Assembly: GCA_964599285.1 (NCBI GenBank)
Contig: CAZREI010000002.1
Coordinates: forward strand, 9,955-73,954
Length of the DNA: 64,000 nt
Source of the DNA: an uncultured Candidatus Saccharibacteria bacterium
GTDB taxonomy: Bacteria > Patescibacteriota > Minisyncoccia > Minisyncoccales > Staskawiczbacteraceae
Direction: 5' to 3'
Below are positions 3,432 through 50,117 of the stretch, piece after piece. The translations under genes were made by a program, and so were the position numbers. Position 1 is the stretch's first letter; every line of letters begins with the position of its first letter. The notes under the pieces were generated by a model that saw nothing but the letters and a program-made list of their open reading frames with translations, did not search any database and had not been told where the DNA came from.

Positions 3432-3524
3432 AACATTATCATCGAATAACGAATTACTTTCGAATTTGCGAATCGTGTCGGACGTTATTCGTAAATTCGT
3501 ACACAATTCGTTATTCGTTGATAT

Positions 3525-3830
3525 CTAAACTTCTGATTTACACTTTTTGCAAATTCTAAATTTCCTGTCGCCATCAATCTTGTACCCTATTCTGGTTGCC
3601 TTGCCACATTTGGGACAAATCAGTTTCACATTAGAAGCATCCAAGGGAGCCTGTACCGGCACCACTTGTCCTTTTTCTCCCTCTTTTTTTGGCTTGATGT
3701 GTTTCTTTTTTAAATTCATTCCTTCAACCAACACTTTCCGCTCTTTTACCAAGGACTTTAAAATCTTGGCAGTCCTGCCTTTATCTTTTCCGGAAATGAC
3801 TAATACATTGTCGCCTTTCTTCAACTTCAT
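3525..3830 (-). CDS. rplX: 50S ribosomal protein L24 with C-terminal zinc-ribbon extension
   Basis: KOW motif MKLKKGDNVLVISGKDKG; C-terminal CPKCG...CKKC. Confidence 0.85.
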   Translation of the reverse strand: MKLKKGDNVLVISGKDKGRTAKILKSLVKERKVLVEGMNLKKKHIKPKKEGEKGQVVPVQAPLDASNVKLICPKCGKATRIGYKIDGDRKFRICKKCKSEV

Positions 3831-3833
3831 GAT

Positions 3834-3917
3834 TTCGCTACGAAATACGAATCAAGTACGAATATACCAATAAGATTTAATTCGTATATTCGTAAAAAAT
3901 TCGTATTTCGTAGCCCA
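3834..3917. repeat. family C hairpin repeat (gctacgaaatacgaat ... attcgtatttcgtagc)
   Basis: Copies at 4316-4400, 36007-36090, 36325-36410. Confidence 0.85.
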
Positions 3918-3942
3918 ATTTACTTTTACCTTTATGGCTGCA

Positions 3943-4311
3943 TTACAATAATTCTGTGGCCATCATGGCTATCTTATCAAACCCCTTGTCTTTTACTTCT
4001 TTGGCCGCGGGACCGAACACTCTTCCTCCTTTGGGCAATTTGCCTTCTCCTAAAATTACTACCGCGTTATCATCAAATCGTATGTAAGAACCATCTTGCC
4101 GTTTAAATTCCTTTTTCTGCCGGATGATGACTGCCTTGACCACATCGTGCTTTTTTACCAACTTGCGCGGATCGGCCTTTTTAACGGTTCCCACAATCAC
4201 TTCTCCCAGCTGGGCATAATGCTTTCGGGTTCCGCCCGGAAGGTTAATACACTGCAGGATTTTTGCTCCCGAGTTGTCTGCGACAATTAACATAGACCTT
4301 GGCTGAATCAT
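3943..4311 (-). CDS. rplN: 50S ribosomal protein L14
   Basis: MIQPRSMLIVADNSGAK... canonical uL14. Confidence 0.95.
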   Translation of the reverse strand: MIQPRSMLIVADNSGAKILQCINLPGGTRKHYAQLGEVIVGTVKKADPRKLVKKHDVVKAVIIRQKKEFKRQDGSYIRFDDNAVVILGEGKLPKGGRVFGPAAKEVKDKGFDKIAMMATELL

Positions 4312-4405
4312 AATATTGCTACGAAATACGAATCAATTACGAATATACGAACATAGGCGTCTGATTTGGTATATTCGTAAAAAATTCGTATTTCGTAGCC
4401 AGAAA

Positions 4406-4639
4406 TTAAATCTTACTTATTACGGTAAATTTCTTGTCCCTTGAGATTGGGTTGGTTTCTTCAATGACAACTTTATCGCCAACATGGTATTGCTGGCTTT
4501 CATCGTGGGCTTTGTATTTTTTGTGGACTTTGTATCTTCGTTTGTACTTGGGATGCTCTTTGACTCGTTCCACTTCAACCACCACGGTTTTTTGCATCTT
4601 GTCGGAAACCACAATTCCCGTTAATTTCTTTTTGCTCAT
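4406..4639 (-). CDS. rpsQ: 30S ribosomal protein S17
   Basis: GIVVSDKMQKTVVVEVER pattern. Confidence 0.9.
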   Translation of the reverse strand: MSKKKLTGIVVSDKMQKTVVVEVERVKEHPKYKRRYKVHKKYKAHDESQQYHVGDKVVIEETNPISRDKKFTVISKI

Positions 4640-5429: not shown

Positions 5430-5540
5430 TTCTTTGATATATATTCGCCTCTGGCGAATGATACTTAGAGATATTTGCGCGCCTTGCGCGCGATATTTTT
5501 CTAGTATCTATTAATATCCGTAATATCCATTAATATCTAT
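5430..5540. repeat. family D repeat (gatatttgcgcgccttgcgcgcgatattt...atatccgtaatatc)
   Basis: Near-identical copy at 17910-18020; partial at 4655-4700. Confidence 0.8.
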
Positions 5541-6214
5541 TTATCAAAACGCTCTCCCTTATAAATCCAAACCTTAATTCCAATGACACCGTACGTGCAG
5601 TGCGCTTCCACCTGGGCGTAATCAATATCAGCTCTGATGGTCTGGCGCGGAAGCCTCCCCTGTTTTAACCATTCTTTGCGGGCAATTTCCACGCCATTTA
5701 ACCTGCCCGACACTTCCATGCGCACGCCTTTGACTTCTTTATTTTGCATCACCCGTTCCAATCCCATTTTCAAAACCTGCCGAAAAGGAATCCTTTTTTC
5801 AATCTGCTGAGCCGCCCATTGTCCGACCAGTTCGGCCACAATCCAAGGGTTTTTCATTTCCTTAATGTCAATTTTGATTTCCCGTTTTTCATGTCCTGCC
5901 CCTGCTTTTCCGGTCGCGAATACCTTGTCATGCAGTTTTTTGACAATCATGTTTTTTAAGGTTTCCGTCCCCTGTCCGCCTCTGCCAATGATAATTCCCG
6001 GCCGCGCTGATTCAATAATAATGTTCAGCTTATTGGCCGAATGCTCTATTTCTATGTTGGCAACCGAAGCTTCTTTTAAGATGTCACGCAGAAAATCTTT
6101 GATCAAAAAATCTTCCTCTAAATACTGGGGCATTTGCTTGCCATAAAAACCGCGGACGTTCCAGTCTTCCAGCCCTTTGATTCTAAATGATTTTGGATGT
6201 ACTTTGTGACCCAC
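5537..6214 (-). CDS. rpsC: 30S ribosomal protein S3
   Basis: GHKVHPKSFRIKG (uS3 N-terminal KH motif). Start proposed at GTG 6214; ORF-track N-terminus MRGIPNSLFRSRYKIRDSRFKN is translation of a repeat. Confidence 0.85.
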   Translation of the reverse strand: MGHKVHPKSFRIKGLEDWNVRGFYGKQMPQYLEEDFLIKDFLRDILKEASVANIEIEHSANKLNIIIESARPGIIIGRGGQGTETLKNMIVKKLHDKVFATGKAGAGHEKREIKIDIKEMKNPWIVAELVGQWAAQQIEKRIPFRQVLKMGLERVMQNKEVKGVRMEVSGRLNGVEIARKEWLKQGRLPRQTIRADIDYAQVEAHCTYGVIGIKVWIYKGERFDK

Positions 6215-6836: not shown

Positions 6837-7172
6837 TTACTTCTCTGGTTTTTTGACGTCCACTGCTACTTTTGCCGCCTGCGACGCTTCAGCCTGCTGT
6901 TCTATTCCTTTTTGCATCTTGCCGCCGTGTCTTGAAAATTTGGTTGACGCGGAAAATTCCCCTAGCTTGTGCCCTACCATATCTTCAGAAACATACACCG
7001 GCACAAACTCCTTGCCATTGTGGACTCCAAAAGTAACCCCAACCATTTCCGGTGAAATCGTGGAAGAACGCGCCCAGGTTTTTATGATAGTCTTTTCGTC
7101 TTTGCGCAGCCTCAACACTTTTTCCAGCAATCGCTGATCTACGAAAGGACCTTTTCTTAAGCTTCTCGACAT
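6837..7172 (-). CDS. rpsS: 30S ribosomal protein S19 with C-terminal extension
   Basis: [12 protein letters not shown]...GHKLGEF; extra about 25 aa tail. Confidence 0.9.
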
Positions 7173-7179
7173 AATTTTT

Positions 7180-7307
7180 GGAGTAATCACGAATATACAA
7201 ATACGTTCAAATATACAAATGTTACAAATATACGAATACGAGCGACGTGATTTGTATATTAGTAAAATTTGTATATTATTTTAGATTTGTATATTCGTGA
7301 TTACTCC
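7180..7307. repeat. family B hairpin element (ggagtaatcacgaatatacaaat ... atttgtatattcgtgattactcc)
   Basis: Perfect about 23-bp terminal inverted repeats. Other copies at 8150-8289, 10696-10809, 18432-18582, 25112-25314, 27386-27501, 49287-49461. Confidence 0.9.
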
Positions 7308-7312
7308 TTATC

Positions 7313-8143
7313 TTATTTTTTCTTACGCCTTTGTATGATGAATTTGTTGGTCCACTTTTTTCGGTTTCTGGTTTTCACTCCTAATGCCGGTAATCCCCAC
7401 GGAGTTTTTGGATGCTTCAATCCAATGGGTTGGCGACCTTCGCCTCCTCCATGCGGATGGTCAACCGGATTCATGGCTGATCCACGCACATGCGGCCGTC
7501 TTCCTTTCAATCGTGACTTACCGGCTTTTCCAACCGTGTAAAATCGATTTTCCGGATTAGACACCATGCCCACCGAAGCAAAACATTCTCCACTGACTTT
7601 GCGAACTTCGGTTGAAGGCATTTTCAAATTAGTGTAGCCGTGTTCTTGCGCCAATACCTGGGCCGCCGATCCTGCCGATCTTACCAAAATGCCGCCTTTA
7701 CCCGGTTCCAATTCAATGTTGTACACGTTCGTTCCCACCGGAATATTTTTTAACTTCATTCGATTACCCGGAGTTTGCGGCGCGTTTTCTGAAAATACTA
7801 TACTATCGCCCACTTTCAACCCTTGCGGCGCAATAATGTATTGCCTTACTTTATCCGAATATTCAATTAATGCAATAAAGCCGGTTCGGTTTGGGTCATA
7901 TTCCAAAGCAATCACATTTGCGGGCGCGTCCATTTTGGTTTGACTAAACTCAATAATCCGATACAGTTTTTTTACGCCGCCGCCTTTGTGTCGCACCGTA
8001 ATTCTGCCCGAAGCCTTTGATCTGCCAACCGAGCGCCTGACGTATTTTAAAAGCGATTTTTCCGCCCGTTTTTTTGTAAGCAAAGAAAAATCAATTCCGG
8101 TCATGCCCCGTCTGGATGGAGTTGTAGGTTTGTAAATCTTCAT
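7313..8143 (-). CDS. rplB: 50S ribosomal protein L2
   Basis: MKIYKPTTPSRRGMTG...GGEGRQPIG; start 8143 (upstream MRVFVYSCIRDYSKI is repeat-derived). Confidence 0.9.
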   Translation of the reverse strand: MKIYKPTTPSRRGMTGIDFSLLTKKRAEKSLLKYVRRSVGRSKASGRITVRHKGGGVKKLYRIIEFSQTKMDAPANVIALEYDPNRTGFIALIEYSDKVRQYIIAPQGLKVGDSIVFSENAPQTPGNRMKLKNIPVGTNVYNIELEPGKGGILVRSAGSAAQVLAQEHGYTNLKMPSTEVRKVSGECFASVGMVSNPENRFYTVGKAGKSRLKGRRPHVRGSAMNPVDHPHGGGEGRQPIGLKHPKTPWGLPALGVKTRNRKKWTNKFIIQRRKKK

Positions 8144-8288
8144 AATTTTGGAGTAATCACGAATACACGAATATACGAATACTCTCAAATATACAAATCT
8201 TACAAATATACGAATGTGCGCGAATGTCGTAATTTGTATATTGGTAAAATTTGTATATTATTTTAGATTTGTATATTCGTGATTACTC

Positions 8289-8723
8289 CTATATGATCTC
8301 TATTTTTTGCCCTTCCTTGACTGTAACTACGGCTTTGGTAAATCCCTTTCTAAACCCTTCAGTTTTTCCCAGCCTTCTTTTTTTGTGCGGAATTGTTATT
8401 ATGTTGACGCCCAGCACGTCTACTCCGTAAATTCCTTCCACTGATTTTTTTATTTCTAATTTATTGGAGTTGCGGTAAACCTTAAATGTATATTTATTCT
8501 TTTCTGCCAAATTGGTTGCCTTTTCAGAAATATGCGGTTCTTTAATTACACTATAAGAAAACCCCTTTGCTTTCTTTGGTCCTGTGGTCCGAACCACGGG
8601 ACTGGGTTTTTGCGGTTCGGGTTTTGCTGATTTTGTAGTCAAAACTTTTTCCGATTTTTTATCAGCTGGTTTTTTCGCCTTTTCTACTTCCTTTTTTCTT
8701 TTTAAAAAATCAAATAAACTCAT
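8289..8723 (-). CDS. rplW: 50S ribosomal protein L23 with Lys/Pro-rich N-terminal extension
   Basis: C-terminal ISEKATNLAEKNKYTFKV uL23 core; start uncertain. Confidence 0.75.
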   Translation of the reverse strand: MSLFDFLKRKKEVEKAKKPADKKSEKVLTTKSAKPEPQKPSPVVRTTGPKKAKGFSYSVIKEPHISEKATNLAEKNKYTFKVYRNSNKLEIKKSVEGIYGVDVLGVNIITIPHKKRRLGKTEGFRKGFTKAVVTVKEGQKIEII

Positions 8724-10056: not shown

Positions 10057-10689
10057 CTAACCCCTAATCTCCAGCAACGTTCCCCGGTGTCCCGGGACGG
10101 CTCCTTTCAATGCTATCACATTATTTTCTGCATCCACTTTTGCGACTATCAAATTTTTTACCGTTACTCTTTCAAATCCCATTCTTCCTGGCATTTTTCT
10201 TCCTTTGATGGTGTGCTGGGGAAATCGCTGGCCAATGGATCCTACGGTTCTTGCTTCGTGCTTTGCTCCGTGCGTAGCATTTCTGCCATGAAACCCATGC
10301 CGCTTTACTGCTCCTTGAAATCCTTTTCCTTTTGAAGTTCCGATAACCGTCACCTTGTCGCCCTCGGCAAATACTGCCACATTAATTTGGTCGCCCACTT
10401 TCACATTCTCATCGTTCCCCCTAAATTCCTTAATGTATTTATATTCTTTCCCTTTCATTGATTTACCAATTTTGCTTTTCTTCAATATTTTTTCCAAACC
10501 AATTTGAATAGCATCATAACCATCTTTGCCGTCTTTTTCTTTCTTGTCCGCCGTAGCTTTAGCGAGGGAGGAGGTTTTTTTCTGCAAAACCACGCAAGGC
10601 CCCGCTTCAACCAAAGTCACCGGAGTGATATTTCCTTTCGCGTCGAATAACTGGGACATGCCGATTTTTTTGCCGAGGATAAACTTCAT
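10057..10689 (-). CDS. rplC: 50S ribosomal protein L3
   Basis: MKFILGKKIGMSQ...; uL3; ORF-track MYIRDYSKF is repeat-derived. Confidence 0.9.
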   Translation of the reverse strand: MKFILGKKIGMSQLFDAKGNITPVTLVEAGPCVVLQKKTSSLAKATADKKEKDGKDGYDAIQIGLEKILKKSKIGKSMKGKEYKYIKEFRGNDENVKVGDQINVAVFAEGDKVTVIGTSKGKGFQGAVKRHGFHGRNATHGAKHEARTVGSIGQRFPQHTIKGRKMPGRMGFERVTVKNLIVAKVDAENNVIALKGAVPGHRGTLLEIRG

Positions 10690-10952
10690 GAATTTGGAGT
10701 AATCACGAATATACAAATACGATCAAATATACAAATATACTAATACGAACGAGTGTTACGATTTGTATATTCGTATATTATTTTAGATTCGTATATTCGT
10801 GATTACTCCTTTTATAAACAAATACCGGGCACTTCGCCCGGCCAATTCAAAACTATTGAATTTTTTGCGGACTTATCTCTTGATAATCAAGAGTAGTATC
10901 TCGTCTTTTTCAACGATTAATCAGTGTACTATATCTTAATAGAAATATCAAC

Positions 10953-12861: not shown

Positions 12862-13149
12862 CTACTGAATTTCCAGCGCTTCCTCAAGCTTTTTCACTCT
12901 CGGCCGAAGATCAGAAATACCTTCTAACTTCACTTCAACATTCTTAAGCCTTTCGTCTATTTTTTCAACCTTAACTTCAACGTTTTTCAATCTATCTTCT
13001 ACTTTTTCAAGCTGAACCTTTGTTGCTACGTTATCAAAACTATCTTTTACCATTTTAGCGGTAGGAAAAGTCTCTTCCATTACTTTGGTAGTAGGAAAAA
13101 TCTCTTTCATCGCCTCAATTATTTTTTTTACATCTTTCTCGTCTATCAT
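12862..13149 (-). CDS. hypothetical coiled-coil protein
   Basis: Repetitive VEDRLKNVEVKVEKIDERLKNVEVKLE heptads; no SD. Confidence 0.4.
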   Translation of the reverse strand: MIDEKDVKKIIEAMKEIFPTTKVMEETFPTAKMVKDSFDNVATKVQLEKVEDRLKNVEVKVEKIDERLKNVEVKLEGISDLRPRVKKLEEALEIQ

Positions 13150-13153
13150 ATTT

Positions 13154-13336
13154 TTATATTTCTTTTTTCTCTTCTTTAATAATGTTATGATTTTTTAGAA
13201 ATTCCACAAGTGGCACATTACAATCTTTGCAAAATTCGTAGTGATCGTAGGCAAACCGCACGGTAGTCCAACCACTTCTATACTTTTCTTCAATTTCTTT
13301 TTTACAAATATCACATTTTGTAACCATCATATGCAT
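13154..13336 (-). CDS. hypothetical zinc-ribbon protein
   Basis: CDIC...CKDC pairs. Confidence 0.35.
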   Translation of the reverse strand: MHMMVTKCDICKKEIEEKYRSGWTTVRFAYDHYEFCKDCNVPLVEFLKNHNIIKEEKKEI

Positions 13337-13450
13337 CCATTATAGTCGGCCAGAGAAGTCTGTCAAATTTGACGGAAAAACTTTTTGGTGCTAAATTATC
13401 AATAGCTGTTTGACATATCGACTTTTCCTCTTTTCACGGGAGAACAGTTC

Positions 13451-13810
13451 ATGACTCAGGAAAATCGTAGGGTTATTAGAGATACGGTTTTCGGCCTTCT
13501 GCGACAACGCCTAGAAAAGCGAGAAAAGATCATTGCGAAATCATGGGAATATTTGAAAGTGAAAGGTATTCCCAGAGAAGAGTTTGAAGAATGGTGGCGA
13601 GAAAGGTTTCCCTCTTGCCCAAAATGCGGATTCGGTTGCAGTTCAACTTTTATGCATTGTCCTGAATGCGGTACCCGATTGCCCCTTCCCAAAACCATTG
13701 AACAGCTCGACGACAGAGAAGAGGAAATGGTTGGATACAGCCACATTGCTCACCACCTCCAAAAAGCAGACGGTTTAAACTTCTGCGTAGATTGTGGCAA
13801 AAAACTTTGA
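13451..13810 (+). CDS. hypothetical zinc-ribbon protein (119 aa), opposite strand between tuf and fusA
   Basis: CPKCG...CPECG and CVDCG; GGGAGA SD; terminator 13822-13852. Confidence 0.45.
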   Translation: MTQENRRVIRDTVFGLLRQRLEKREKIIAKSWEYLKVKGIPREEFEEWWRERFPSCPKCGFGCSSTFMHCPECGTRLPLPKTIEQLDDREEEMVGYSHIAHHLQKADGLNFCVDCGKKL

Positions 13811-13944: not shown

Positions 13945-16020
13945 TTACTTTGTCTTCCCTTCGATTATTTGTTGCGCGACATTTGAAGGCACTTGTTCAT
14001 ATGAATTAAATTCCATGGTAAATGACGCTCGTCCTTCCGTTAGAGAGCGAAGGGCCGTCGCGTATCCAAACATTTCTGACAATGGCACCATGGCGTCCAG
14101 TACCTTCATGCCAACGCGCTCATGAGTTTGCTCAATTTTTCCACGCCTTGAATTTAAGTCAGATATAACCGGACCAAAAAATGCTTCGGGAGTGATGACT
14201 TCCGTTTTCATGATTGGCTCCAAAATGACTGGCTTGGCTTTTTTGGCGCCAGCTTGCACGGCCATACTTCCTGCAATTTTAAAAGCAAATTCTGAAGAGT
14301 CAACATCGTGGAAAGACCCGTCATACAGCGTAACTTGCACGTCCACCATGGGGTAACCGGCAATAATTCCCTTGTCTAGCGCTTCAATAATTCCCTTTTC
14401 GGTTGGCTTGATAAATTCTTTGGGAATGGCGCCTCCTTTAATTTCATCCACAAATTCAAAACCCTTGCCCCGTTCCAGCGGCTTTAATCTAATCAACACG
14501 TGGCCGTATTGGCCTTTGCCTCCGGACTGGCGCACATATTTTTCTTCAGCTTCTGATTCGCCGGTGATGGTTTCCTTGTAAGCCACCTGCGGCCGGCCAA
14601 AGTTTGCGTCCACGTTAAACTCGCGCCGCAGCCTATCCTGAATAATATCCAAATGCAATTCCCCCATGCCAGAAATAATGGTTTCGCCCGTTTCAATATC
14701 TTCTTTAATTCTAAAGGTTGGGTCTTCTTGTGTCAGTTTTCTGATAGAAGCAATTAACTTTTCCTGGTCGGCTTTGGTTTTTGGCTCCACGCGCATGCTG
14801 ATGACCGGTTCAGGGAAGGAAATTTTTTCCAAAACCACCGGCTTGTCTTTGTCGCACAATGTGTGGCCGGTTGAAGTATCTTTTAAACCAACTGTGGCGC
14901 CAATTTCGCCGGCATACAGCACATCTAATTCTTCGCGGCTGTTTGACTTCATGCGCAAAATTCGGGCGATTCTTTCCTGCTCGCCGGTTACGGAATTTAA
15001 TACATACGTGCCTTTATTTAAGGTGCCAGAATACACTCTAAAAAACGTCAGCTGGCCGACAAAAGGATCCGTGGCAACTTTAAATACCAGCGCGGCAAAG
15101 GGTTCTGAATCAGAAAATTTCCGTTCAATTTCTGCGCCGGTTTTAGGATCCGTGCCCTTGACCATGCCAATATCGGCTGGCGATGGCAGGTAATCTATGA
15201 CGGCGTCCAAAATAAATTGTGTGCCCTTATTTTTCAAAGCTGAACCGCAAAATACCGGCACCAGTTTGAAAGCCAAACAAGCTTTTCGCATCGCTACCAT
15301 TAATTCCTCGTTGGAAATTTCTTCGCCTCCCAGCAATTTGTTGGTTAAGGTATCGTCTTCGCCGGCAATTCGGTCCACCATTTTTTCGCGCCAAGCTTTG
15401 GCTTTTTCCATCATATCAGCGGGAATTTCGCGCTCTTCCACTTTTTCTCCTTTCTCACCTTCAAAATAAATAGCTTTCATTTTTAGCAAATCAATCACTG
15501 CCGATAAGTTTTCTTCTTCGCCGATGGGAATGGTCATAGCCACCGCGTTTTTGGTCAGTTTATCTAAAATACTTTGAAAAGATTTTTCAAAACTGCCACC
15601 CATTCTATCCAATTTATTGATAAAACAAACCCGAGGTGTGCCGTATTTATCAGCCTGGCGCCAGACGGTTTCCGATTGCGGTTCCACGCCAGCAACTCCG
15701 TCAAAAACCACCACCGCGCCGTCAAGTACGCGCAAAGATCGCTGCACTTCAGCCGTAAAATCAATGTGGCCAGGGGTGTCAATTAAGTTCATTTGGATTC
15801 CCTTCCAGTGCATGGTAATAGCGGCGGCGGTGATGGTAATTCCGCGCTCGCGTTCCTGTGGCATCCAATCCATCACGGTATCGCCCTCGTGCACTTCCCC
15901 AATTTTGTGCGAAACTCCGGTATAAAACAAAAGCCGCTCAGACACGGTAGTTTTACCAGCGTCTATGTGAGCGATAATTCCGAAGTTACGTAGTTTTTCT
16001 AATGGGTATTGACGAGACAT
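13945..16020 (-). CDS. fusA: elongation factor G
   Basis: [17 protein letters not shown], long EF-G body. Confidence 0.95.
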
Positions 16021-16047
16021 TGACAAATTATAGTTTATTGTTTATAT
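16019..16047 (+). promoter_or_regulatory. sigma70-like promoter TTGACA-17-TATATT for 16089 ORF
   Basis: Consensus spacing; overlaps fusA start. Confidence 0.35.
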
Positions 16048-16088
16048 TAAATATAGTTTCGAAACTATATTTTACTAGGAGGTGAGAC

Positions 16089-16307
16089 ATGTTTGAGTAT
16101 GCAGTTGTTCGTTTTGGTGCGTTCGAACCAGATGCAGCGGATGAGGTGGTGAAAACCGCGAACGCAAGGGCGCAAGATGGATGGCGCCTTGTATCTGTGT
16201 GCGCCGTCAAGCCCACCTCAACCTACTCATACGTCCTTCCGCAAGAGGGACAAGGTAGCACCGAAAAAGTACCCACAATCGCCGCTTTTTTCGAAAGGAA
16301 GAAGTAG
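16089..16307 (+). CDS. DUF4177-like small protein
   Basis: M.EY.VV....F......EELLNxxGxxGWxLVSV pattern; AGGAGG SD; higher GC than flanks. Confidence 0.5.
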   Translation: MFEYAVVRFGAFEPDAADEVVKTANARAQDGWRLVSVCAVKPTSTYSYVLPQEGQGSTEKVPTIAAFFERKK

Positions 16308-16323
16308 GAGGATTAACGAGCGA

Positions 16324-16356
16324 GGCGCCAACCCAAAAAGTTGGCGCATTTTTTTA
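16324..16356 (+). terminator. intrinsic terminator
   Basis: ggcgccaacccaaaaagttggcgc plus T7. Confidence 0.6.
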
Positions 16357-16614
16357 CCTGTAAATATCCTTCCGGTGACCAATTTCTACGAATACTGCTT
16401 CATCTTTACTTTCAAAACAATAAATAACTCTATACTCGCTTGTTAATCTTAAAGAATAAAATCCATTAAATTTTCCAGAAAGTTTTTTAACATGAAGGCG
16501 GGTGTCATGTTGGTCAGTTCTAAAAATATCTGTTTGCCGCAGGAGTAATTCTTTTATTTTCAGGGGCAAATTACTTGCATCTTTTAAAAAAGATTTTCTT
16601 AAAACAACTTTCAT
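16354..16614 (-). CDS. type II toxin, RelE/ParE family
   Basis: C-terminal YRVIYCFESKDEAVFVEIGHRKDIY matches RelE/ParE; 86 aa. Confidence 0.8.
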   Translation of the reverse strand: MKVVLRKSFLKDASNLPLKIKELLLRQTDIFRTDQHDTRLHVKKLSGKFNGFYSLRLTSEYRVIYCFESKDEAVFVEIGHRKDIYR

Positions 16615-16958
16615 TTTGAAATAAGCTTTAGGAAATCTCTTTTATTGGTATAAACAACCGACCCACGCCTATCTTTTGCATTCTTTAAAACCCTTTTTAC
16701 AAAATTGGGATTATACTCACCCTCACGGTCAACACCACCACTTAAACGATACTTTTTCTTAACCTGTCCCATTGAATAAGTCCGTCCTGTTTTAACATCT
16801 TCTTGGCCCAACCTGATTTGCTTTATGGCCCAATTACTTAAAGCTTCTTTTTTACCTACTTTTTTGGTTTTTCTAGCGCCAGCTAAAACCAACCTTTTAA
16901 CAAAAGCTAAATCTTTTTCCAGTCTATTAATTTTTTTCTCTAAAAGTCTGTTGGTCAT
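16611..16958 (-). CDS. putative cognate antitoxin (unassigned family)
   Basis: Immediately upstream of toxin with 4-bp ATGA overlap; inferred from genomic position. Confidence 0.45.
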   Translation of the reverse strand: MTNRLLEKKINRLEKDLAFVKRLVLAGARKTKKVGKKEALSNWAIKQIRLGQEDVKTGRTYSMGQVKKKYRLSGGVDREGEYNPNFVKRVLKNAKDRRGSVVYTNKRDFLKLISK

Positions 16959-17030
16959 GGACTTATTTTAGTGTATTCTTTGTGAAAGTCAATTTTGAGC
17001 AATAATTCCAAAGTTACGCATTTTTTCTAT

Positions 17031-17060
17031 TGGACATTGTCTTGACATAAATATATTAAA
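17031..17060 (+). promoter_or_regulatory. sigma70-like promoter TTGACA-17-TATGAT
   Basis: Upstream of 17123 ORF. Confidence 0.35.
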
Positions 17061-17122
17061 AATATATGATTGGGACGTGTAATACTTCTCTCGCCTTTTG
17101 CTCTTACAAGAAGAGAAATCTT

Positions 17123-17380
17123 ATGGCGGAACGAATCTTTCCGAAAGGCGTGCGGACAAGGGGTAACGTAATCAAATTTCGAACGGAGGATGGAAAGGAA
17201 ATTTCCGAGTACGTCGAATTCCGAAAGAAGGAAGATGACGAAACGCTCATTGTCTTTTTAAGGGACACAAATCGTTATCTCACCCACAATCCCTTGAAGG
17301 ACGGAGACAAGTGGACATATCATTACGCACATCACGAGGTTCACAGAGAACTAGGTAGGGTGACAATCGTCACCGATTAG
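17123..17380 (+). CDS. small hypothetical protein (85 aa) opposite strand between fusA and rpsG
   Basis: MAERIFPKG...; own terminator 17402-17432. Confidence 0.4.
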   Translation: MAERIFPKGVRTRGNVIKFRTEDGKEISEYVEFRKKEDDETLIVFLRDTNRYLTHNPLKDGDKWTYHYAHHEVHRELGRVTIVTD

Positions 17381-17401: not shown

Positions 17402-17432
17402 ACACGCGAAACGAATTTCGCGTGTCTTTTTT
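17402..17432 (+). terminator. intrinsic terminator
   Basis: acacgcgaaacgaatttcgcgtgt plus T-run. Confidence 0.6.
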
Positions 17433-17441
17433 ATCTCAAAA

Positions 17442-17906
17442 TTATCTTGCAAAGTGAGCAAATGCCTTGTTTGCCTCCGCCATCCTATGCGTATCGTTCT
17501 TTTTCTTCATCGCGTTGCCTTCGTTGTTTGAACAGGCAATCAATTCTTCGCTCAATTTAATGGCCATGCCTTTGCCTTTTTTATTTCTTGCGGCGTCTAA
17601 AATCCATTTAATCGCCAAGTCTAATTTCCGTTCTTGCCGAACTTCCATAGGAACTTGGTAGGTCGCTCCCCCAACTCGCTTTGGTTTTACTTCCAATAAC
17701 GGAGAAACGTTTTCAATAGCTTTGCCAAAAACCTCCAGTGGTTCTTTCTGGGTTTTTTCTTTTATAATATTAAAAGAATCGTACACAATTCTTTGTGCTA
17801 CGGTTTTTTTGCCGTCTTTCATTACCTTGTTAATCAGTTGGGCAACGACCAGGTCATTGTAGACCGAGTCGGGTGAAATTTTTCGTTTCTTAAATGCTCG
17901 TCGCAT
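17442..17906 (-). CDS. rpsG: 30S ribosomal protein S7
   Basis: uS7 body, 154 aa, str operon position. Confidence 0.9.
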
Positions 17907-18014
17907 AATCCTTTGATATTTATTCGCCTTGGCGAATGATACTTAGAGATATTTGCGCGCCTCGCGCGCGATATTTTTCTAGTATCTATTAATATCCGTA
18001 ATATCTATTAATAT

Positions 18015-18425
18015 CTACTTTTTCAGTTTCGTTCCATACCTCGATCTTCCCTGCTTTCGGTTTTCTACTCCTGTCGTATCCAAAATGCCACGGACAATGT
18101 GGTATCTGACTCCGGGCAAGTCCTTTACCCTGCCGCCTCTGATTAATACCACGCTGTGTTCTTGCAAGTTGTGGCCTTCGCCAGGAATGTAGGCTGTCAC
18201 CTCCATACCGTTGGACAGTTTTACCCTGGCAACTTTACGCAAAGCCGAGTTTGGTTTTCTTGGCGTTTGGGTAAATACCTTAATGCACACGCCGCGCTTA
18301 AAGGGCGATGGGTAGTGTGATGGCCGGTTTTGCAAAGCATTAAAACCAAACTGCAAAGCCACGCCCTTCTTTTTGGCTTTAATGGATCTTCTGGGTTTTT
18401 TAATGAGTTGATGAATCGTAGGCAT
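18015..18425 (-). CDS. rpsL: 30S ribosomal protein S12
   Basis: [13 protein letters not shown]...[11 protein letters not shown]...; start 18425 (MYIRDYSKK is repeat-derived). Confidence 0.92.
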
Positions 18426-18479
18426 TTTCTTGGAGTAGTCACGAATATACAAATACGATCAAATATACAAATATACAAA

Positions 18480-18520
18480 TGTGAAGATTGCTTCGGCGCT
18501 CCTCGCAATGACGGACGGAA
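18480..18520. repeat. family I motif (ctggattgccacg...ctcgcaatgacg) nested inside family B copy
   Basis: Also at 9895-9960, 13858-13912, 25170-25262, 31860-31945, 49356-49405; related ctggattcccgattgcgcgggaatgaca at 29060-29090. Confidence 0.8.
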
Positions 18521-18659
18521 CGGATTTGTATATTGGTAAAATTTGTATATTATTTTAGATTTGTATATTAGTGATTACTCCTTCTAAAAAAGAATAAGCG
18601 CACTGCGCTCAATACCTGCAAGTCTATCAAAAAAAATAATGAGAGTCAATACTCGCGGG

Positions 18660-24464: not shown

Positions 24465-25103
24465 TTAAATATTGCTAAACCTTTTTTCGGCCTCTGCCCA
24501 GTTGACCACGTTCCACCAGGCTTTTAGGTAATCCGGGCGGACGTTTTTGTATTGCAAATAGTAGGCGTGCTCCCAGACGTCGTTGCCCATAATCGGCGTA
24601 TGACCATCGGACATTGGGTTGTCCTGGTTAGCCGTAGACATAACTTCCAGCTTGCCATCTTTATTTTTTACCAACCACACCCAGCCGCTTCCAAAACGCT
24701 TGGCTCCGGCGTCTTCAAATTTAGTTTTAAAATCTTCAAAACTGCCAAAAGTTTTTTTAATTTCTTCGGCTAACTTGCCGGTTGGTTCAGGGAGCCACCC
24801 CGCTGAGCGGGGTTCGGGTCCGCTAAGCGGACCCATAATCTCCCAAAACATGGAATGATTCACATGTCCGCCACCGTTGTTCTTAACAGCGGTGCGAATG
24901 TCTTCCGGAACAGCATTTAAGTCCATCAACAGTTCTTCTGCGCTTTTTTCAAAAAGTTCCGGATGTTTTTCCAAAGCATCATTTACATTTTTAACATAAG
25001 CCGCGTGATGCTTGTCATGGTGGAGCATCATAATTTCTTGTGAAATATAAGGCTCCAAAGCATTGTAGGTATAGGGCAAGTCCGGCAAAGCATGTTTTTT
25101 CAT
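24465..25103 (-). CDS. sodA: Fe/Mn superoxide dismutase
   Basis: [16 protein letters not shown]...HHDKHH...[13 protein letters not shown]. Confidence 0.95.
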
Positions 25104-25318
25104 AGTTTTAAGGAGTAATCACGAATATACAAATTTAGAACAATATACAAATGTTACAAATATACGAATGTGCTGGATTGCCACGCTGGCAAGATGCGTG
25201 GCGTAATTGGCCGCAGCCGATTCGCCCCATCTCCGGCTCGCAATGACGACGACGGGATTTGTATATTTGTAAGATTTGTATATTTGATCGTATTGGTATA
25301 TTCGTGATTACTCCAGCA

Positions 25319-35989: not shown

Positions 35990-36086
35990 TTGCTACTCTT
36001 TAAGGCTACGAAATACGAATTTTTTACGAATATACGAAATTAAAACGCTCGCATTCGTATATTCGTATGCAATTCGTATTTCGTAG

Positions 36087-36332
<246 letters not shown>

Positions 36333-36423
36333 TTACGAATGTAGTACGAATATACGAAAGTCAGACGCCCACATTCGTATATTCGTAAAAAATTCGTATT
36401 TCGTAGCCTAATTAATATTAAAC

Positions 36424-37155
36424 TTAATGACTTTCAATGGCGGTATGTAGGGAAATTGAAACCAGGGTGAGCATGGCAAAGACAAACGACTGGATTAATC
36501 CTACAAAAATTTCCAGAAATAAAAATGGCAGCGGGACTACATACGGAACCAAGAAAAACACAATGGTCAGCAATACTTCACCGGCAAACACATTGCCAAA
36601 CAACCGAAACGACAGCGAAATAATTTTAGCAAATTCTGAAACCAGTTCCAAAATTCCAATGAAAAATTTTATGGGATTTTGGAAATTGATAAATTTGCTA
36701 ATGTGCGGCAAAACGCCCACCGCCATCATCCCCAACAAGTTAGTGACAATCACGGAAATGACCGCAAAGGCCAGGGTGAAATTTAAATCAGCGGCCGGAG
36801 ACCTAAACAGTGAAACTTCCCTGCCTCCGTTTTGGATGTACAGCGACCCGACGCCGGGCAAAATTCCCGACAGATTGCAAATCATGATGAAAATAAAAAT
36901 GGTGGCGATGAGCGGAAAATATTGCTCGGCTTTTTTTATGGATCCCAACATCCCTTCCATTAGGCCCAAGAGCCACTCAAAGCCCATTTCCACCACCGAC
37001 TGGACCGCGCCCGGAACGATTTGGATTTTGCGATAGAAAAGAGCCGCGCCGGCCATCAGGATCAGTGAAACTACGAACGTGGAAAACAAGCTATTAGTGA
37101 AAGCAAAATGGCCAATTGAAAATATTTCCTGCGCTTTTAGAGAAATTTCCTCCAT
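36424..37155 (-). CDS. atpB: ATP synthase subunit a
   Basis: Polytopic; conserved Arg region LSFRLFGN. Confidence 0.9.
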   Translation of the reverse strand: MEEISLKAQEIFSIGHFAFTNSLFSTFVVSLILMAGAALFYRKIQIVPGAVQSVVEMGFEWLLGLMEGMLGSIKKAEQYFPLIATIFIFIMICNLSGILPGVGSLYIQNGGREVSLFRSPAADLNFTLAFAVISVIVTNLLGMMAVGVLPHISKFINFQNPIKFFIGILELVSEFAKIISLSFRLFGNVFAGEVLLTIVFFLVPYVVPLPFLFLEIFVGLIQSFVFAMLTLVSISLHTAIESH

Positions 37156-48989: not shown

Positions 48990-49289
48990 TTATCTTACAA
49001 GCAGCAGCAATGCCGCTCCGCCGCTTTCTATGTGGTCTCCTACGACTTTTCCTATGCAACGGTTTTCATAGTCAAAAACCTGGCCGTCGCCGTGGACCGT
49101 GCCGATGTGGCTTCCGGCTTTGTACACGTACCCGTTGGCTCCAAAATTTCCGACCACGCTTCCCGAAGCATTGTGCACTTCACTATCGCTTGAAACATAT
49201 CCAATAATAACGTTTGCCGTGTTGCGGACCCTCCCATCTTCTCCAATGGTCGCCATTTTTTGCCCGGATATATCTAAGATGTCTGACAT
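48990..49289 (-). CDS. beta-rich hypothetical (bactofilin-like repeats)
   Basis: Start at MSDILD; G-x-V repeats. Confidence 0.35.
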   Translation of the reverse strand: MSDILDISGQKMATIGEDGRVRNTANVIIGYVSSDSEVHNASGSVVGNFGANGYVYKAGSHIGTVHGDGQVFDYENRCIGKVVGDHIESGGAALLLLVR

Positions 49290-49454
49290 AGTTTTTGGAG
49301 TAATCACGAATATACCAATACGATCAAATATACAAATGTTACAAATATACGAATGTGCTGGATTGCCACGTCGCTTCGCTCCTCGCAATGACGGACAGAA
49401 CGGATTTGTATATTGGTAAAATTTGTATATTGTTCTAAATTTGTATATTCGTGA

Positions 49455-50117
49455 TTACTCCCTAATTAGTTGGTATTCTTTGTTAAAAATCTTTTTGGAA
49501 ATAATAAAAATACTATAGGTGATAAAGGGCGCGGCAAAGACATCTATGGAATAATGCATGTGGGCCAAAATCATGGTGACGCCAAAAATGCCGGCGGCGA
49601 CAAAAAAGAAGTTTCTCCAAAGGGCTTCTTTCCAAAAAATCAGGCCAAATAAAAATGGCGCGCCCACGTGTCCCGAAAAGAAAAAATCATTTTTGGCATT
49701 GTATAAAAAATCGTAAATACTGAAACCAACGCCCTGGGCGTTTAAGGTGATTTGATGAAGGCTGACTCCCAAGTGCGTCAAGCTGATAAAAAAGGACCTG
49801 ACAATAATAAAAAATGCCAAAGATTTAATAGAAAAAAGCAGGTAGCGGGGCTGGATGGCGCAGAGCATCATAACGACAAAAGACAGTATCAGCGCGCCTT
49901 GCACAATGAAAAAATCTAAATTAATGGTGGGCAGGTTGTCCAATAATAAATCCCCCACGTAGGTTACCTGCGCGTGATGGTCAACATAATTGTAGGCAAA
50001 ATGCTGCACGAGCAAAGCGGCCGCCAATAGCGCCACGGCACCCAAGAACAACAAAAACGTATCCTTTTTCCAAAAATGCGTATGGCGCAAATATATTTTT
50101 TCTATGTAGCTATTCAT
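49455..50117 (-). CDS. PAP2-family membrane phosphatase
   Basis: SGH and HMHYSIDV motifs. Confidence 0.7.
   Translation of the reverse strand: MNSYIEKIYLRHTHFWKKDTFLLFLGAVALLAAALLVQHFAYNYVDHHAQVTYVGDLLLDNLPTINLDFFIVQGALILSFVVMMLCAIQPRYLLFSIKSLAFFIIVRSFFISLTHLGVSLHQITLNAQGVGFSIYDFLYNAKNDFFFSGHVGAPFLFGLIFWKEALWRNFFFVAAGIFGVTMILAHMHYSIDVFAAPFITYSIFIISKKIFNKEYQLIRE

What the first reader, a model, noticed from the sequence alone, without database searches (positions are those of the whole stretch)
15965..17040. Toxin-antitoxin cassette inserted at the 5' end of fusA, with a diverged duplicate of the fusA start
- Cassette contents: a DUF4177-like gene, a RelE/ParE toxin (16354-16614) and its upstream partner (16611-16958) lie between rpsG and fusA, inside the otherwise invariant str operon.
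- Duplication: the cassette is bounded by two about 50-bp imperfect direct repeats. The fusA start region at 15965-16020 (encoding [17 protein letters not shown]) reappears at 16990-17040 (reverse strand encodes MSRQCPIEKMRNFGIIA).
- A target-site or gene-start duplication of this kind indicates an insertion event that preserved the fusA 5' end.
Basis: seen in the sequence. Interest (0 to 1): 0.6.

Follow-up and report, generated by a model that had tools for sequence, protein, structure and literature searches.

The report
Toxin-antitoxin islet with fusA-start relic
Between two essential translation genes (rpsG and fusA) of an ultra-small groundwater bacterium sits a RelE-type toxin-antitoxin pair next to a dead 5' fragment of a second, foreign-looking fusA allele; relatives show that this spot is a small, horizontally exchanged islet of swappable toxin-antitoxin genes, not a fresh transposon-style insertion.

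Summary
Window 15968-16030 (the working fusA start) and 16996-17058 are direct repeats, 49/63 identical, against at most 35/63 in shuffles.

The genes are as described:
- a RelE/StbE-family toxin,
- an overlapping upstream partner with no known family,
- a DUF4177 gene,
all lying between rpsG and fusA of a Staskawiczbacteria-like (Patescibacteria) str operon.

The interpretation needs revision.
- The second copy is not a target-site duplication. It is a relic of a different fusA allele (MSRQ-C/Y-PIEKM type). It differs from the resident start mostly at synonymous sites and is closest (47/51) to the working fusA starts of other lineages.
- The same relic, joined at the same point to the same sigma70-like promoter, recurs in three other lineages. 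There it sits in front of related or unrelated toxin-antitoxin pairs.
- Two of those lineages carry a relic of the rpsG 3' end just after the toxin gene, and a third (L109) carries one just after its real rpsG.
- The PIEKM-type copy occurs in all seven islet-bearing loci examined and in none of seven islet-free relatives. In the islet-free relatives rpsG and fusA lie 2-506 nt apart.

Best reading: a variable TA islet exchanged between lineages by recombination, with partial copies of the flanking essential genes left as scars or homology arms. No integrase, transposase or phage copy was found.

The parts
17442..17906 (-). rpsG (ribosomal protein S7), upstream flank of the islet
   Evidence: Pfam Ribosomal_S7, E=7e-63.
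17066..17380 (+). Small ORF (104 aa as listed; more likely 85 aa from the ATG at 17123), transcribed divergently from the relic. No homologue in any locus fetched.
   Evidence: ORF list. Promoter-like site 17042-17070 with 11/12 matches and terminator-like hairpin 17402-17425. tblastn finds it only in the same organism's contigs.
16996..17058 (-). Relic of a fusA 5' end: 10 nt upstream plus codons 1-18. The ATG is at 17048 and the frame stops at 16991-16989. It is the PIEKM-type allele.
   Evidence: 63-nt direct repeat with 15968-16030, 49/63 identical. 47/51 identical to the working fusA starts of L084 and L114.
16965..16992 (-). Promoter-like site of the TA operon: TTGACT, 16 nt, TAAAAT. The antitoxin ATG lies 6 nt after the -10 box, a leaderless-type layout. 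The site starts immediately after the relic.
   Evidence: Promoter scan, 10/12 matches. Conserved in L092, L114 and L108.
16611..16958 (-). Putative antitoxin, 115 aa. It has an N-terminal coiled coil, a conserved C-terminal EGEY..FVKRV region, and a roughly 45-aa internal insertion (16734-16877) that no homologue has.
   Evidence: 4-nt overlap with the toxin start. Synteny is conserved with 57-78 aa partners in five other loci. No Pfam, NCBIfam or PDB family. 17 representatives in 1.84e9 proteins.
16354..16614 (-). RelE/StbE-family toxin, 86 aa
   Evidence: TIGR02385 28.9 bits, above the cut-off of 27.9. A profile of six homologues hits M. jannaschii RelE3 (3bpq_B) over its full length, E=1.9e-9. 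The C-terminal HRKDIY motif is invariant.
16325..16347 (+). Terminator-like hairpin between the convergent toxin and DUF4177 genes
   Evidence: Terminator scan.
16089..16307 (+). DUF4177 gene, 72 aa, divergent from fusA. About 50% GC with a strong AGGAGG ribosome-binding site, unlike its neighbours. Not part of the conserved cassette.
   Evidence: Pfam PF13783 29.3 bits, cut-off 25. Composition. Upstream sequence. Promoter-like site 16020-16048 with 11/12 matches. No counterpart in relatives.
15968..16030 (-). Working fusA start, the second copy of the direct repeat. It is the PLEKL-type allele, also found in islet-free relatives L113 and L115.
13945..16020 (-). fusA (EF-G), intact, 691 aa
   Evidence: All EF-G Pfam domains present. 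96% identical to the closest relative.

Best explanation
The rpsG-fusA spacer of one clade of Candidatus Staskawiczbacteria (Patescibacteria) holds a small variable islet.

Core of the islet. A type II toxin-antitoxin operon is driven by its own sigma70-like, leaderless-type promoter. In the window this operon is a RelE/StbE-family, presumably ribosome-dependent, mRNA endonuclease with a small uncharacterised antitoxin.

Borders. The left border of the cassette is a dead 5' fragment of a fusA gene. In sister lineages a dead 3' fragment of rpsG follows the toxin gene. The segment 'rpsG end - spacer - fusA start' is thus represented twice around the cassette, while both essential genes stay whole.

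Origin (inferred). That is the layout expected from either of two events:
- an insertion-duplication, meaning Campbell-type single-crossover integration of a circular piece carrying the cassette plus that segment; or
- a tandem duplication with the cassette at the new joint.

Spread (inferred). Once such an islet exists, its partial gene copies and the conserved flanking genes can act as homology arms. Ordinary RecA-type recombination of DNA taken up from relatives can then move the islet between lineages and swap its cargo. The toxin-antitoxin pair favours retention.

In the window. The relic is the islet-borne, foreign fusA allele. The working fusA start appears to be the native allele. The rpsG relic has been lost, and unrelated small genes (ORF104, DUF4177) fill the two spacers.

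What is shown and what is inferred.
- Shown: the repeat, the gene identities, the shared junction, the rpsG relics, the allele association, the empty sites, and the cargo diversity.
- Inferred: the recombination route, the role of the relics as arms, and the activity of the toxin and antitoxin.
For: 1. Repeat. 49/63 identical, about 14 sd above shuffles.

2. Two alleles, not decay of a local copy.
- The 11 differences in the first 18 codons fall 3/1/7 by codon position and include a synonymous CGT/AGA switch.
- The window relic and the L114 relic differ by 6 synonymous and 3 non-synonymous codons.
- Four-fold degenerate sites in fusA are saturated between all these lineages (34-49% identity). 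Yet the relic is 47/51 identical to the working starts of L084 and L114, against 41/51 to its own.

3. Shared junction.
- GCYYA|AAATTGACTTT, followed by the -35/-10 boxes and then ATG, is found in the window, L092/L094 and L114.
- L108 keeps the promoter with about 9 nt of relic.
- L109 keeps the relic plus AAAATT.

4. Cargo differs under that framework.
- T86-type RelE pairs in the window, L084 and L092. The toxins are 80-83% identical; the antitoxins 43-48%.
- A 40%-identical T85 pair in L114.
- A different RelE/YoeB-like pair in L109, with a deleted remnant of its antitoxin in L084.
- A HicB-like gene plus a broken HicA in L108.

5. rpsG 3' relics.
- L092 6274-6360: 29 codons, starting 12 nt after the toxin stop, 72-76/90 nt identical to real rpsG ends with only 2 amino-acid changes.
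- L114, directly after its toxin stop.
- L109.

6. In L092 a diverged double-zinc-ribbon ORF precedes both the relic and the real fusA start (33% aa identity between the two).

7. Allele association. MSRQYPIEKM-type starts occur only in islet-bearing loci. Among the 120 closest EF-G proteins these are P0008, P0010, P0011, P0014, P0017, P0025 and P0029. The two islet genomes whose working start is of another type (window, L109) carry the PIEKM type as the relic. Seven islet-free relatives have none.

8. Empty sites. The rpsG-fusA gap is 2 nt (L142), 28 nt (L112) and 112 nt (L110), and 343-506 nt with one small ORF or none in L113, L115, L111 and L001. It is 1262-1702 nt in islet loci.

9. Horizontal exchange.
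- Toxin third-position identity between the window and L084 is 76%, against 51-62% for rpsL, rpsG, fusA and tuf.
- L084, L085, L086 and L087 are identical from rpsG to fusA +105..+185 and then about 20% divergent.
- The relic and TA stretch is 30-35% GC, against about 44-47% in flanking genes.
Against: - No rpsG relic is detectable in the window itself. The full two-sided duplication is seen only in relatives.
- All allele inferences rest on about 50-nt segments and on seven islet-bearing loci that are phylogenetically related. The 7-versus-7 association is therefore not seven independent events.
- Which copy in the window is native and which imported cannot be proven. An alternative reading is that the relic is the displaced host start and the working start was imported.
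- No circular form, no donor with a matching DUF4177 or ORF104 spacer, and no very close islet-free strain of the same species were found.
- Some mosaics (L084-L087) could be assembly chimeras between co-occurring strains.
- Toxin and antitoxin activity is untested, and the antitoxin belongs to no known family.
Confidence: 0.55

Rival explanations
1. Site-specific integrative element. The roughly 1-kb segment between the repeats is, or is the remnant of, an element that a tyrosine or serine recombinase inserts into an attachment site at the 5' end of fusA. The element would supply a replacement promoter and first codons, as SXT/R391 elements do at the 5' end of prfC. The two repeats would be attL and attR.
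For: - Imperfect direct repeats bracket the insert.
- The junction is identical in lineages with different flanks and cargo.
- Relic and working allele types are mirrored between the window and L114.
- Empty sites exist.
Against: - There is no recombinase gene between the repeats, and none among 20 of the larger ORFs of the window scanned with Pfam.
- The TA family's close relatives occur only at this locus, and none occur in viral contigs.
- rpsG 3' relics are not explained by an att site that lies in fusA.
- A shared junction is equally explained by a single origin followed by homologous spread.
Confidence: 0.15
2. One-off local event. A tandem duplication or homology-facilitated illegitimate recombination in the ancestor of this clade created the relic once. 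Everything since is vertical descent with local decay and cargo replacement. The relic is a passive scar with no role in spread.
For: - By rpsG the islet-bearing W, L084, L092, L108 and L109 fall in one clade (88-97% aa identity).
- The junction is shared as a derived character.
- The relic reading frame is not conserved: a stop codon in L109 and a 66-nt palindromic insert in L092.
Against: - Neutral sites between these lineages are saturated. A passive relic of that age should be unrecognisable, yet the relics are 83-92% identical to working starts and differ from each other largely synonymously.
- L114 carries the islet but sits outside the rpsG clade (72-81% aa identity). L113 and L115 sit inside the clade without an islet.
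- Toxin synonymous divergence is smaller than that of core genes.
Confidence: 0.2
3. Transposon or insertion-sequence insertion with a target-site duplication.
For: Direct repeats flank an insert.
Against: - The repeat is 63 nt long and only 78% identical.
- No transposase ORF and no terminal inverted repeats at the repeat boundaries were reported.
- The copies are distinct alleles.
Confidence: 0.02
4. The fusA-like fragment is a functional cis element, for example a leader peptide, a regulatory mimic of the fusA 5' region, or an UP element for the TA promoter. On this reading it is kept by selection and is not a relic.
For: - It is an island of conservation in otherwise unalignable spacers.
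- It abuts the -35 box.
- All copies keep the ATG and the first 9 codons.
Against: - The frame is broken differently in L092 and L109, and the fragment is lost or nearly lost in L084 and L108, whose TA operons look intact apart from the broken hicA of L108.
- No Rfam family matches.
- The sequence changes are mostly synonymous, which points to past coding constraint rather than DNA- or RNA-level constraint.
Confidence: 0.08

Closest known systems
RelBE-type type II toxin-antitoxin systems (RelE/StbE family; M. jannaschii RelBE3, PDB 3bpq)
   Same: An 86-aa toxin matching TIGR02385 and RelE3 over its full length. A small upstream gene overlaps it by 4 nt. The operon has its own promoter.
   Different: The partner has no detectable relation to RelB or any other antitoxin family. 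It has only a GCN4-like coiled-coil signal and a tiny family of 17 representatives. The window copy carries a unique 45-aa insertion. Activity is untested.
SXT/R391 integrative conjugative elements at the 5' end of prfC
   Same: Foreign DNA lies at the 5' end of a translational GTPase gene. The gene stays functional, and a duplicate of the gene start is left at the other junction (PMC2791158).
   Different: Those elements are about 100 kb and encode the integrase Int, with nearly identical attP and attB. Here the insert is about 1 kb, has no recombinase, has repeats only 78% identical, and in relatives includes relics of the other flanking gene (rpsG).
Insertion-duplication (Campbell-type) integration and homology-facilitated recombination during natural transformation
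   Same: A chromosomal segment is present twice in direct orientation around inserted DNA, with both flanking genes intact. Donor and recipient alleles are mixed. Breakpoints lie in conserved coding sequence.
   Different: These are known mainly from laboratory constructs and transformation experiments. I found no description of a natural, recurrent TA islet in the str operon built this way in 36 papers mentioning both toxin-antitoxin and Patescibacteria (only the 10 top-ranked titles and abstracts were examined). The process itself was not observed here.
Recombinase-less TA-carrying modules and TA-rich variable hotspots between conserved genes (for example pdif modules of Acinetobacter plasmids; recalled from memory, not tested)
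   Same: Small modules without their own recombinase, often carrying TA pairs, are exchanged between replicons at a fixed kind of site.
   Different: pdif modules are bounded by 28-bp XerC/XerD sites on plasmids. Here the bounds are fragments of essential chromosomal genes. No Xer-type site was sought or found.

Membership tests
Type II toxin-antitoxin, RelE/StbE (RelBE-like) | Toxin belongs to the RelE/ParE superfamily by sequence | tested here: met
   TIGR02385 28.9 bits, above the cut-off of 27.9. The profile hits RelE3 3bpq_B at E=1.9e-9 over positions 2-86. Pfam HigB, Gp49 and ParE hits all fall below their cut-offs.
Type II toxin-antitoxin, RelE/StbE (RelBE-like) | Small partner gene immediately upstream, translationally coupled, with conserved synteny | tested here: met
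   4-nt ATGA overlap. The same two-gene order is found in L084, L092, L105, L107 and L114.
Type II toxin-antitoxin, RelE/StbE (RelBE-like) | Partner belongs to a recognised antitoxin family (RelB, Phd/YefM, HigA ...) | tested here: not met
   No NCBIfam hit. Only a sub-threshold DUF2683 hit in Pfam. Only coiled-coil noise in the PDB.
Type II toxin-antitoxin, RelE/StbE (RelBE-like) | Catalytic residues of RelE-type mRNA interferases are present | tested here: inconclusive
   R56, R62, R81, K82 and Y85 and the C-terminal HRKDIY are invariant in six homologues. Residue-by-residue equivalence to characterised RelE active sites was not established.
Type II toxin-antitoxin, RelE/StbE (RelBE-like) | Toxicity, and neutralisation by the partner | not testable with these tools
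   Needs expression experiments.
Site-specific integrative element (att-flanked island, SXT/prfC-like) | Direct repeats (attL and attR) at both ends | tested here: met
   63-nt repeats, 78% identical.
Site-specific integrative element (att-flanked island, SXT/prfC-like) | Integrase or recombinase encoded by the element | tested here: not met
   Only four small ORFs lie between rpsG and fusA, and none is recombinase-like. 20 other large ORFs of the window have no recombinase domain.
Site-specific integrative element (att-flanked island, SXT/prfC-like) | Unoccupied attachment site in relatives | tested here: met
   In L142, L112 and L110, rpsG and fusA are 2-112 nt apart.
Site-specific integrative element (att-flanked island, SXT/prfC-like) | Excision to a circular form | not testable with these tools
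   Needs read-level or PCR evidence.
Transposon or IS with target-site duplication | Short exact duplication, terminal inverted repeats, transposase | tested here: not met
   63 nt and imperfect. No transposase ORF and no matching terminal inverted repeats.
Insertion-duplication (Campbell-type integration or tandem duplication around an insert) | A contiguous chromosomal segment is duplicated in direct orientation on both sides of the insert | tested here: inconclusive
   In the window, only the fusA 5' part is duplicated. In L092 and L114, the fusA 5' relic lies left of the TA pair and the rpsG 3' relic lies right of it. In L092 a second zinc-ribbon ORF is also present.
Insertion-duplication (Campbell-type integration or tandem duplication around an insert) | Both flanking genes remain intact | tested here: met
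   Full-length rpsG and fusA with all their domains.

The most novel reading that the evidence does not exclude
The islet is a minimal selfish element without any recombinase. It would consist of a toxin-antitoxin operon welded to fragments of the two universally conserved genes that flank its site (rpsG 3' end and fusA 5' end). Those fragments would serve as built-in homology arms. DNA released from one Staskawiczbacteria lineage could then integrate into the str operon of another by the host's own recombination. It could insert in different registers (relic on the left, or working start on the right) without ever inactivating an essential gene. The TA pair would penalise loss.
Probability: 0.15. 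Interest if true: 0.7.

Novelty: new variant of a known kind. Interest (0 to 1): 0.4.

Why it matters
The str operon is among the most conserved gene arrangements in bacteria. Candidate Phyla Radiation genomes are small and thought to be streamlined.

This case shows a hotspot inside the str operon that accumulates and swaps addiction modules, with relics of the neighbouring essential genes at its borders. That gives a concrete, testable example of how accessory DNA can enter and spread between such genomes using only homologous recombination.

It is also a practical warning for annotation. Short fusA and rpsG fragments here are scars, not genes. The 5' end of fusA in these lineages can be of different ancestry from the rest of the locus.

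The antitoxin family is essentially undescribed.

Tried and rejected
1. A regular-expression search for fusA-start fragments in 80 species-level genome loci around fusA found none outside this organism. The feature is therefore not general in Patescibacteria.
2. Looked for a remnant of the relic in the L084-type spacer. None was found. The 44/48-aa ORF there is a deleted remnant of the L109-type antitoxin.
3. Sliding-window comparison of the window's fusA with six relatives showed no clear mosaic breakpoint inside the window's own fusA.
4. Two viral-contig scans, one with a toxin profile and one with the junction pattern, returned only distant RelE-like genes. There was no junction match and no fusA fragment nearby.
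5. The metagenome scan with the toxin profile added only three distant TA pairs in unrelated contexts.
6. Rfam and tRNA scans of the region found nothing.
7. Pfam scans of 20 larger ORFs in the window found no integrase, recombinase or transposase.
8. I first thought small ORFs upstream of PLEKL-type starts in L109 and L111 were DUF4177-like. Pfam does not support this, so the idea was dropped.
9. I first read the PIEKM-type relic as the host's displaced start. The rpsG matrix and the N-terminus survey showed islet-free members of the same clade with PLEKL-type starts, which favours the opposite assignment for the window.
10. The antitoxin profile gave no usable hit against PDB sequences.
Full report
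**What is in the window**

On the minus strand the order is as follows:

| Feature | Coordinates | Note |
|---|---|---|
| rpsL | 18452-18015 | |
| rpsG | 17906-17442 | |
| small ORF | 17066-17380 | opposite strand |
| fusA-like fragment | 17058-16996 | 63 nt |
| 115-aa gene | 16958-16611 | |
| 86-aa gene | 16614-16354 | |
| DUF4177 gene | 16089-16307 | opposite strand |
| fusA | 16020-13945 | |
| three small genes | | between fusA and tuf |
| tuf | 12688-11495 | |

The closest database proteins are named Candidatus Staskawiczbacteria (Patescibacteria/CPR).

- The repeat finder reports 15968-16030 and 16996-17058 as a 63-nt direct repeat, 78% identical.
- The next best match of that 63-mer anywhere in the 64 kb, on either strand, is 33/63.
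- Shuffles of the intervening sequence give 28.9 ± 1.4, maximum 35, against 49 observed.
- Similarity runs from 10 nt upstream of the ATG into codon 18.
- The second copy reads MSRQCPIEKMRNFGIIAQN-stop.
- Three independent Logan assemblies contain the identical arrangement.

**Gene identities**

- *Toxin.* The 86-aa protein passes the NCBIfam RelE/StbE cut-off (28.9 against 27.9 bits). A profile of six homologues aligns end to end with M. jannaschii RelE3 (E=1.9e-9). Its C-terminal HRKDIY and several basic residues are invariant.
- *Partner.* The 115-aa protein overlaps the toxin start by 4 nt. Conserved synteny is the only evidence that it is an antitoxin. It has no Pfam, NCBIfam or PDB family. 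Homologues are 57-78 aa, and the window copy has a unique internal insertion of about 45 aa. An exhaustive profile search finds only 17 representatives among 1.84 billion proteins.
- *DUF4177.* The call is supported (29.3 bits, cut-off 25).
- *Promoter.* A promoter-like site, TTGACT-16-TAAAAT, begins right after the fusA-like fragment and ends 6 nt before the antitoxin ATG.

**The two fusA starts are different alleles**

- Of the 11 differences in the first 18 codons, 7 are at third positions, and one codon pair is a synonymous CGT/AGA switch.
- Between the lineages compared here, four-fold degenerate sites of fusA are saturated (34-49% identity). An old neutral copy should therefore be unrecognisable.
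- Instead the relic is 47/51 identical to the working fusA starts of two other lineages (L084, L114), and 41/51 to the resident start.
- The relic and TA stretch is 30-35% GC, against about 44-47% in flanking genes.

**Relatives**

*Islet-free relatives.* Staskawiczbacteria have rpsG and fusA 2 nt (L142), 28 nt (L112) or 112 nt (L110) apart. In L113, L111 and L001 a single small opposite-strand ORF separates them, and in L115 a 373-nt gap does.

*Islet-bearing loci* have gaps of 1262-1702 nt:

- **L092/L094 (an NCBI Staskawiczbacteria MAG and many metagenome contigs).** The order is rpsG, a zinc-ribbon ORF, a fusA-start relic (interrupted by a 66-nt palindromic insert), the same promoter, a 70-aa antitoxin, an 83%-identical toxin, a 29-codon relic of the rpsG 3' end starting 12 nt after the toxin stop, a second diverged zinc-ribbon ORF, and fusA.
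- **L114.** It has a relic of the other allele type ([17 protein letters not shown]-stop), the same junction and promoter, and a toxin only 40% identical. rpsG relics follow directly after that toxin. A C-terminal remnant of yet another toxin is present. The working fusA start is 92% identical to the window's relic.
- **L109 (fusA 95% identical to the window).** It has a 12-codon rpsG relic, a zinc-ribbon ORF, a relic (MTRQYPIEKMRNF-stop) and then a different RelE/YoeB-like pair.
- **L108 (fusA 96%).** It keeps the promoter and about 9 nt of relic in front of a HicB-like gene and a broken HicA.
- **L084-L087.** They carry the 80%-identical toxin. They have no relic, but they do have a deleted remnant of the L109-type antitoxin.

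The relic and promoter therefore belong to the locus framework, and the cargo turns over.

**Allele association**

- Among the 120 closest EF-G proteins, the MSRQYPIEKM N-terminus occurs in seven. All seven come from islet-bearing loci.
- The two islet genomes whose working start is of another type (window, L109) carry the PIEKM type as their relic.
- None of seven islet-free relatives has it. That includes L113 and L115, which fall in the same rpsG clade as the window (88-94% aa identity) and share its PLEKL-type start.
- For the window, this favours the reading that the working start is native and the relic arrived with the cassette. It is short-sequence evidence from related lineages, so I hold it with moderate confidence.

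**Evidence for exchange**

- Toxin third-position identity between the window and L084 is 76%, against 51-62% for rpsL, rpsG, fusA and tuf.
- The L092 rpsG relic differs from every real rpsG end at 14-25 of 90 nt among same-register (154-aa rpsG) lineages but has only two amino-acid changes. It was therefore a working allele elsewhere until recently.
- L084, L085, L086 and L087 are identical from rpsG through fusA +105..+185 and then about 20% divergent. This is either a real recombination breakpoint or an assembly chimera that itself needs a long shared stretch.

**Mechanism**

The layout is 'rpsG - spacer - fusA(1-18) - [promoter, antitoxin, toxin] - rpsG(about 120-154) - spacer' - fusA'. 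It is what a single-crossover integration of a circle carrying the cassette plus the rpsG-end/fusA-start segment would give. A tandem duplication with the cassette at the new joint would give the same layout. Both leave the essential genes whole.

After that, a fragment reaching from the relic to the fusA body has homology to a naive fusA 5' region at both ends. It can therefore insert by ordinary double crossover. This reproduces the same junction every time and mixes host and donor alleles, which fits the mirrored allele types of the window and L114.

These steps are inferred. Nothing here shows the process happening.

**Rivals**

- *Integrase-driven element using the fusA 5' end as its att site.* The analogy is SXT/R391 at prfC (PMC2791158). 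It explains the constant junction. However, no recombinase was found, no mobile or viral copies were found, and it does not explain the rpsG relics.
- *Purely vertical scar.* This is hard to reconcile with saturated neutral sites and with L114 lying outside the clade.
- *Transposon target-site duplication.* Excluded by the length, the imperfection and the lack of a transposase.
- *Functional leader or regulatory role for the fragment.* Unlikely, because the frame is broken in two lineages and the fragment is missing in two others. A contribution to the promoter is not excluded.

**Verdict**

The feature is real, and the TA call is correct. The 'insertion that preserved fusA' idea is right in spirit. 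But this is not a recent cassette hop with a target duplication. It is a lineage-shared, horizontally exchanged TA islet in the str operon, bordered by relics of the neighbouring essential genes.

It is a new variant of known processes (insertion-duplication, TA-stabilised islets) in an unusual place and phylum. Interest is moderate.

Noticed in passing
window 5452-5542 and 17930-18020: A 91-nt element, 97% identical between its two copies and containing a GC-rich palindrome (GCGCGCCTCGCGCGC). One copy lies in the rpsC-rplP spacer and the other in the rpsL-rpsG spacer.
   Followed up: partly
window 7168-7307, 8138-8289, 10684-10809, 18420-18581, 25100-25314, 49285-49461; also 3440-3939, 4308-4424, 35995-36432: Several families of intergenic repeats built from short motifs (ACGAATATACAAAT..., ATTCGTATATTCGTAAAAAATTCGTATTTCGTAG), often as inverted pairs flanking gene starts. 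They are numerous across the window.
   Followed up: no
window 12862-13810: The fusA-tuf spacer also holds three small genes: a 119-aa double zinc ribbon on the opposite strand, a 60-aa zinc ribbon and a 95-aa coiled coil. Homologues of the last two sit at the same place in relatives, and the zinc-ribbon family recurs next to fusA starts.
   Followed up: partly
window 16734-16877: The antitoxin gene carries an in-frame insertion of about 45-48 codons (…ALSNWAIKQIRLGQEDVKTGRTYSMGQVKKKY…) that is absent from every homologue found.
   Followed up: partly
window 16020-16048 and 17042-17070 (+ strand): Two 11/12 sigma70-like sites read away from the working fusA start and from the relic into the DUF4177 gene and ORF104. 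In both, the -35 hexamer TTGACA overlaps the (pseudo)start codon region of fusA.
   Followed up: no
window 16077-16088: The DUF4177 gene has a strong AGGAGG ribosome-binding site and about 50% GC. Most genes inspected in the window have no recognisable Shine-Dalgarno sequence. fusA and the antitoxin gene have a TANNNT box 6 nt before the ATG.
   Followed up: partly
L092 5669-5735; L109 1594-1654: Short palindrome-bearing inserts. A 66-nt one splits the fusA relic of L092. A roughly 60-nt one follows rpsG in L109 and is itself followed by a duplicate of the last 12 rpsG codons.
   Followed up: no
L084, L085, L086, L087 (fusA +105 to +185): Four contigs from different samples are identical from rpsG through the TA pair into the first 105-185 nt of fusA. 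After that they differ by about 20%. This is either a recombination breakpoint or an assembly chimera.
   Followed up: partly
L115 816-1880: A reverse-transcriptase (RVT_1) gene lies just upstream of rpsL in one islet-free relative.
   Followed up: no
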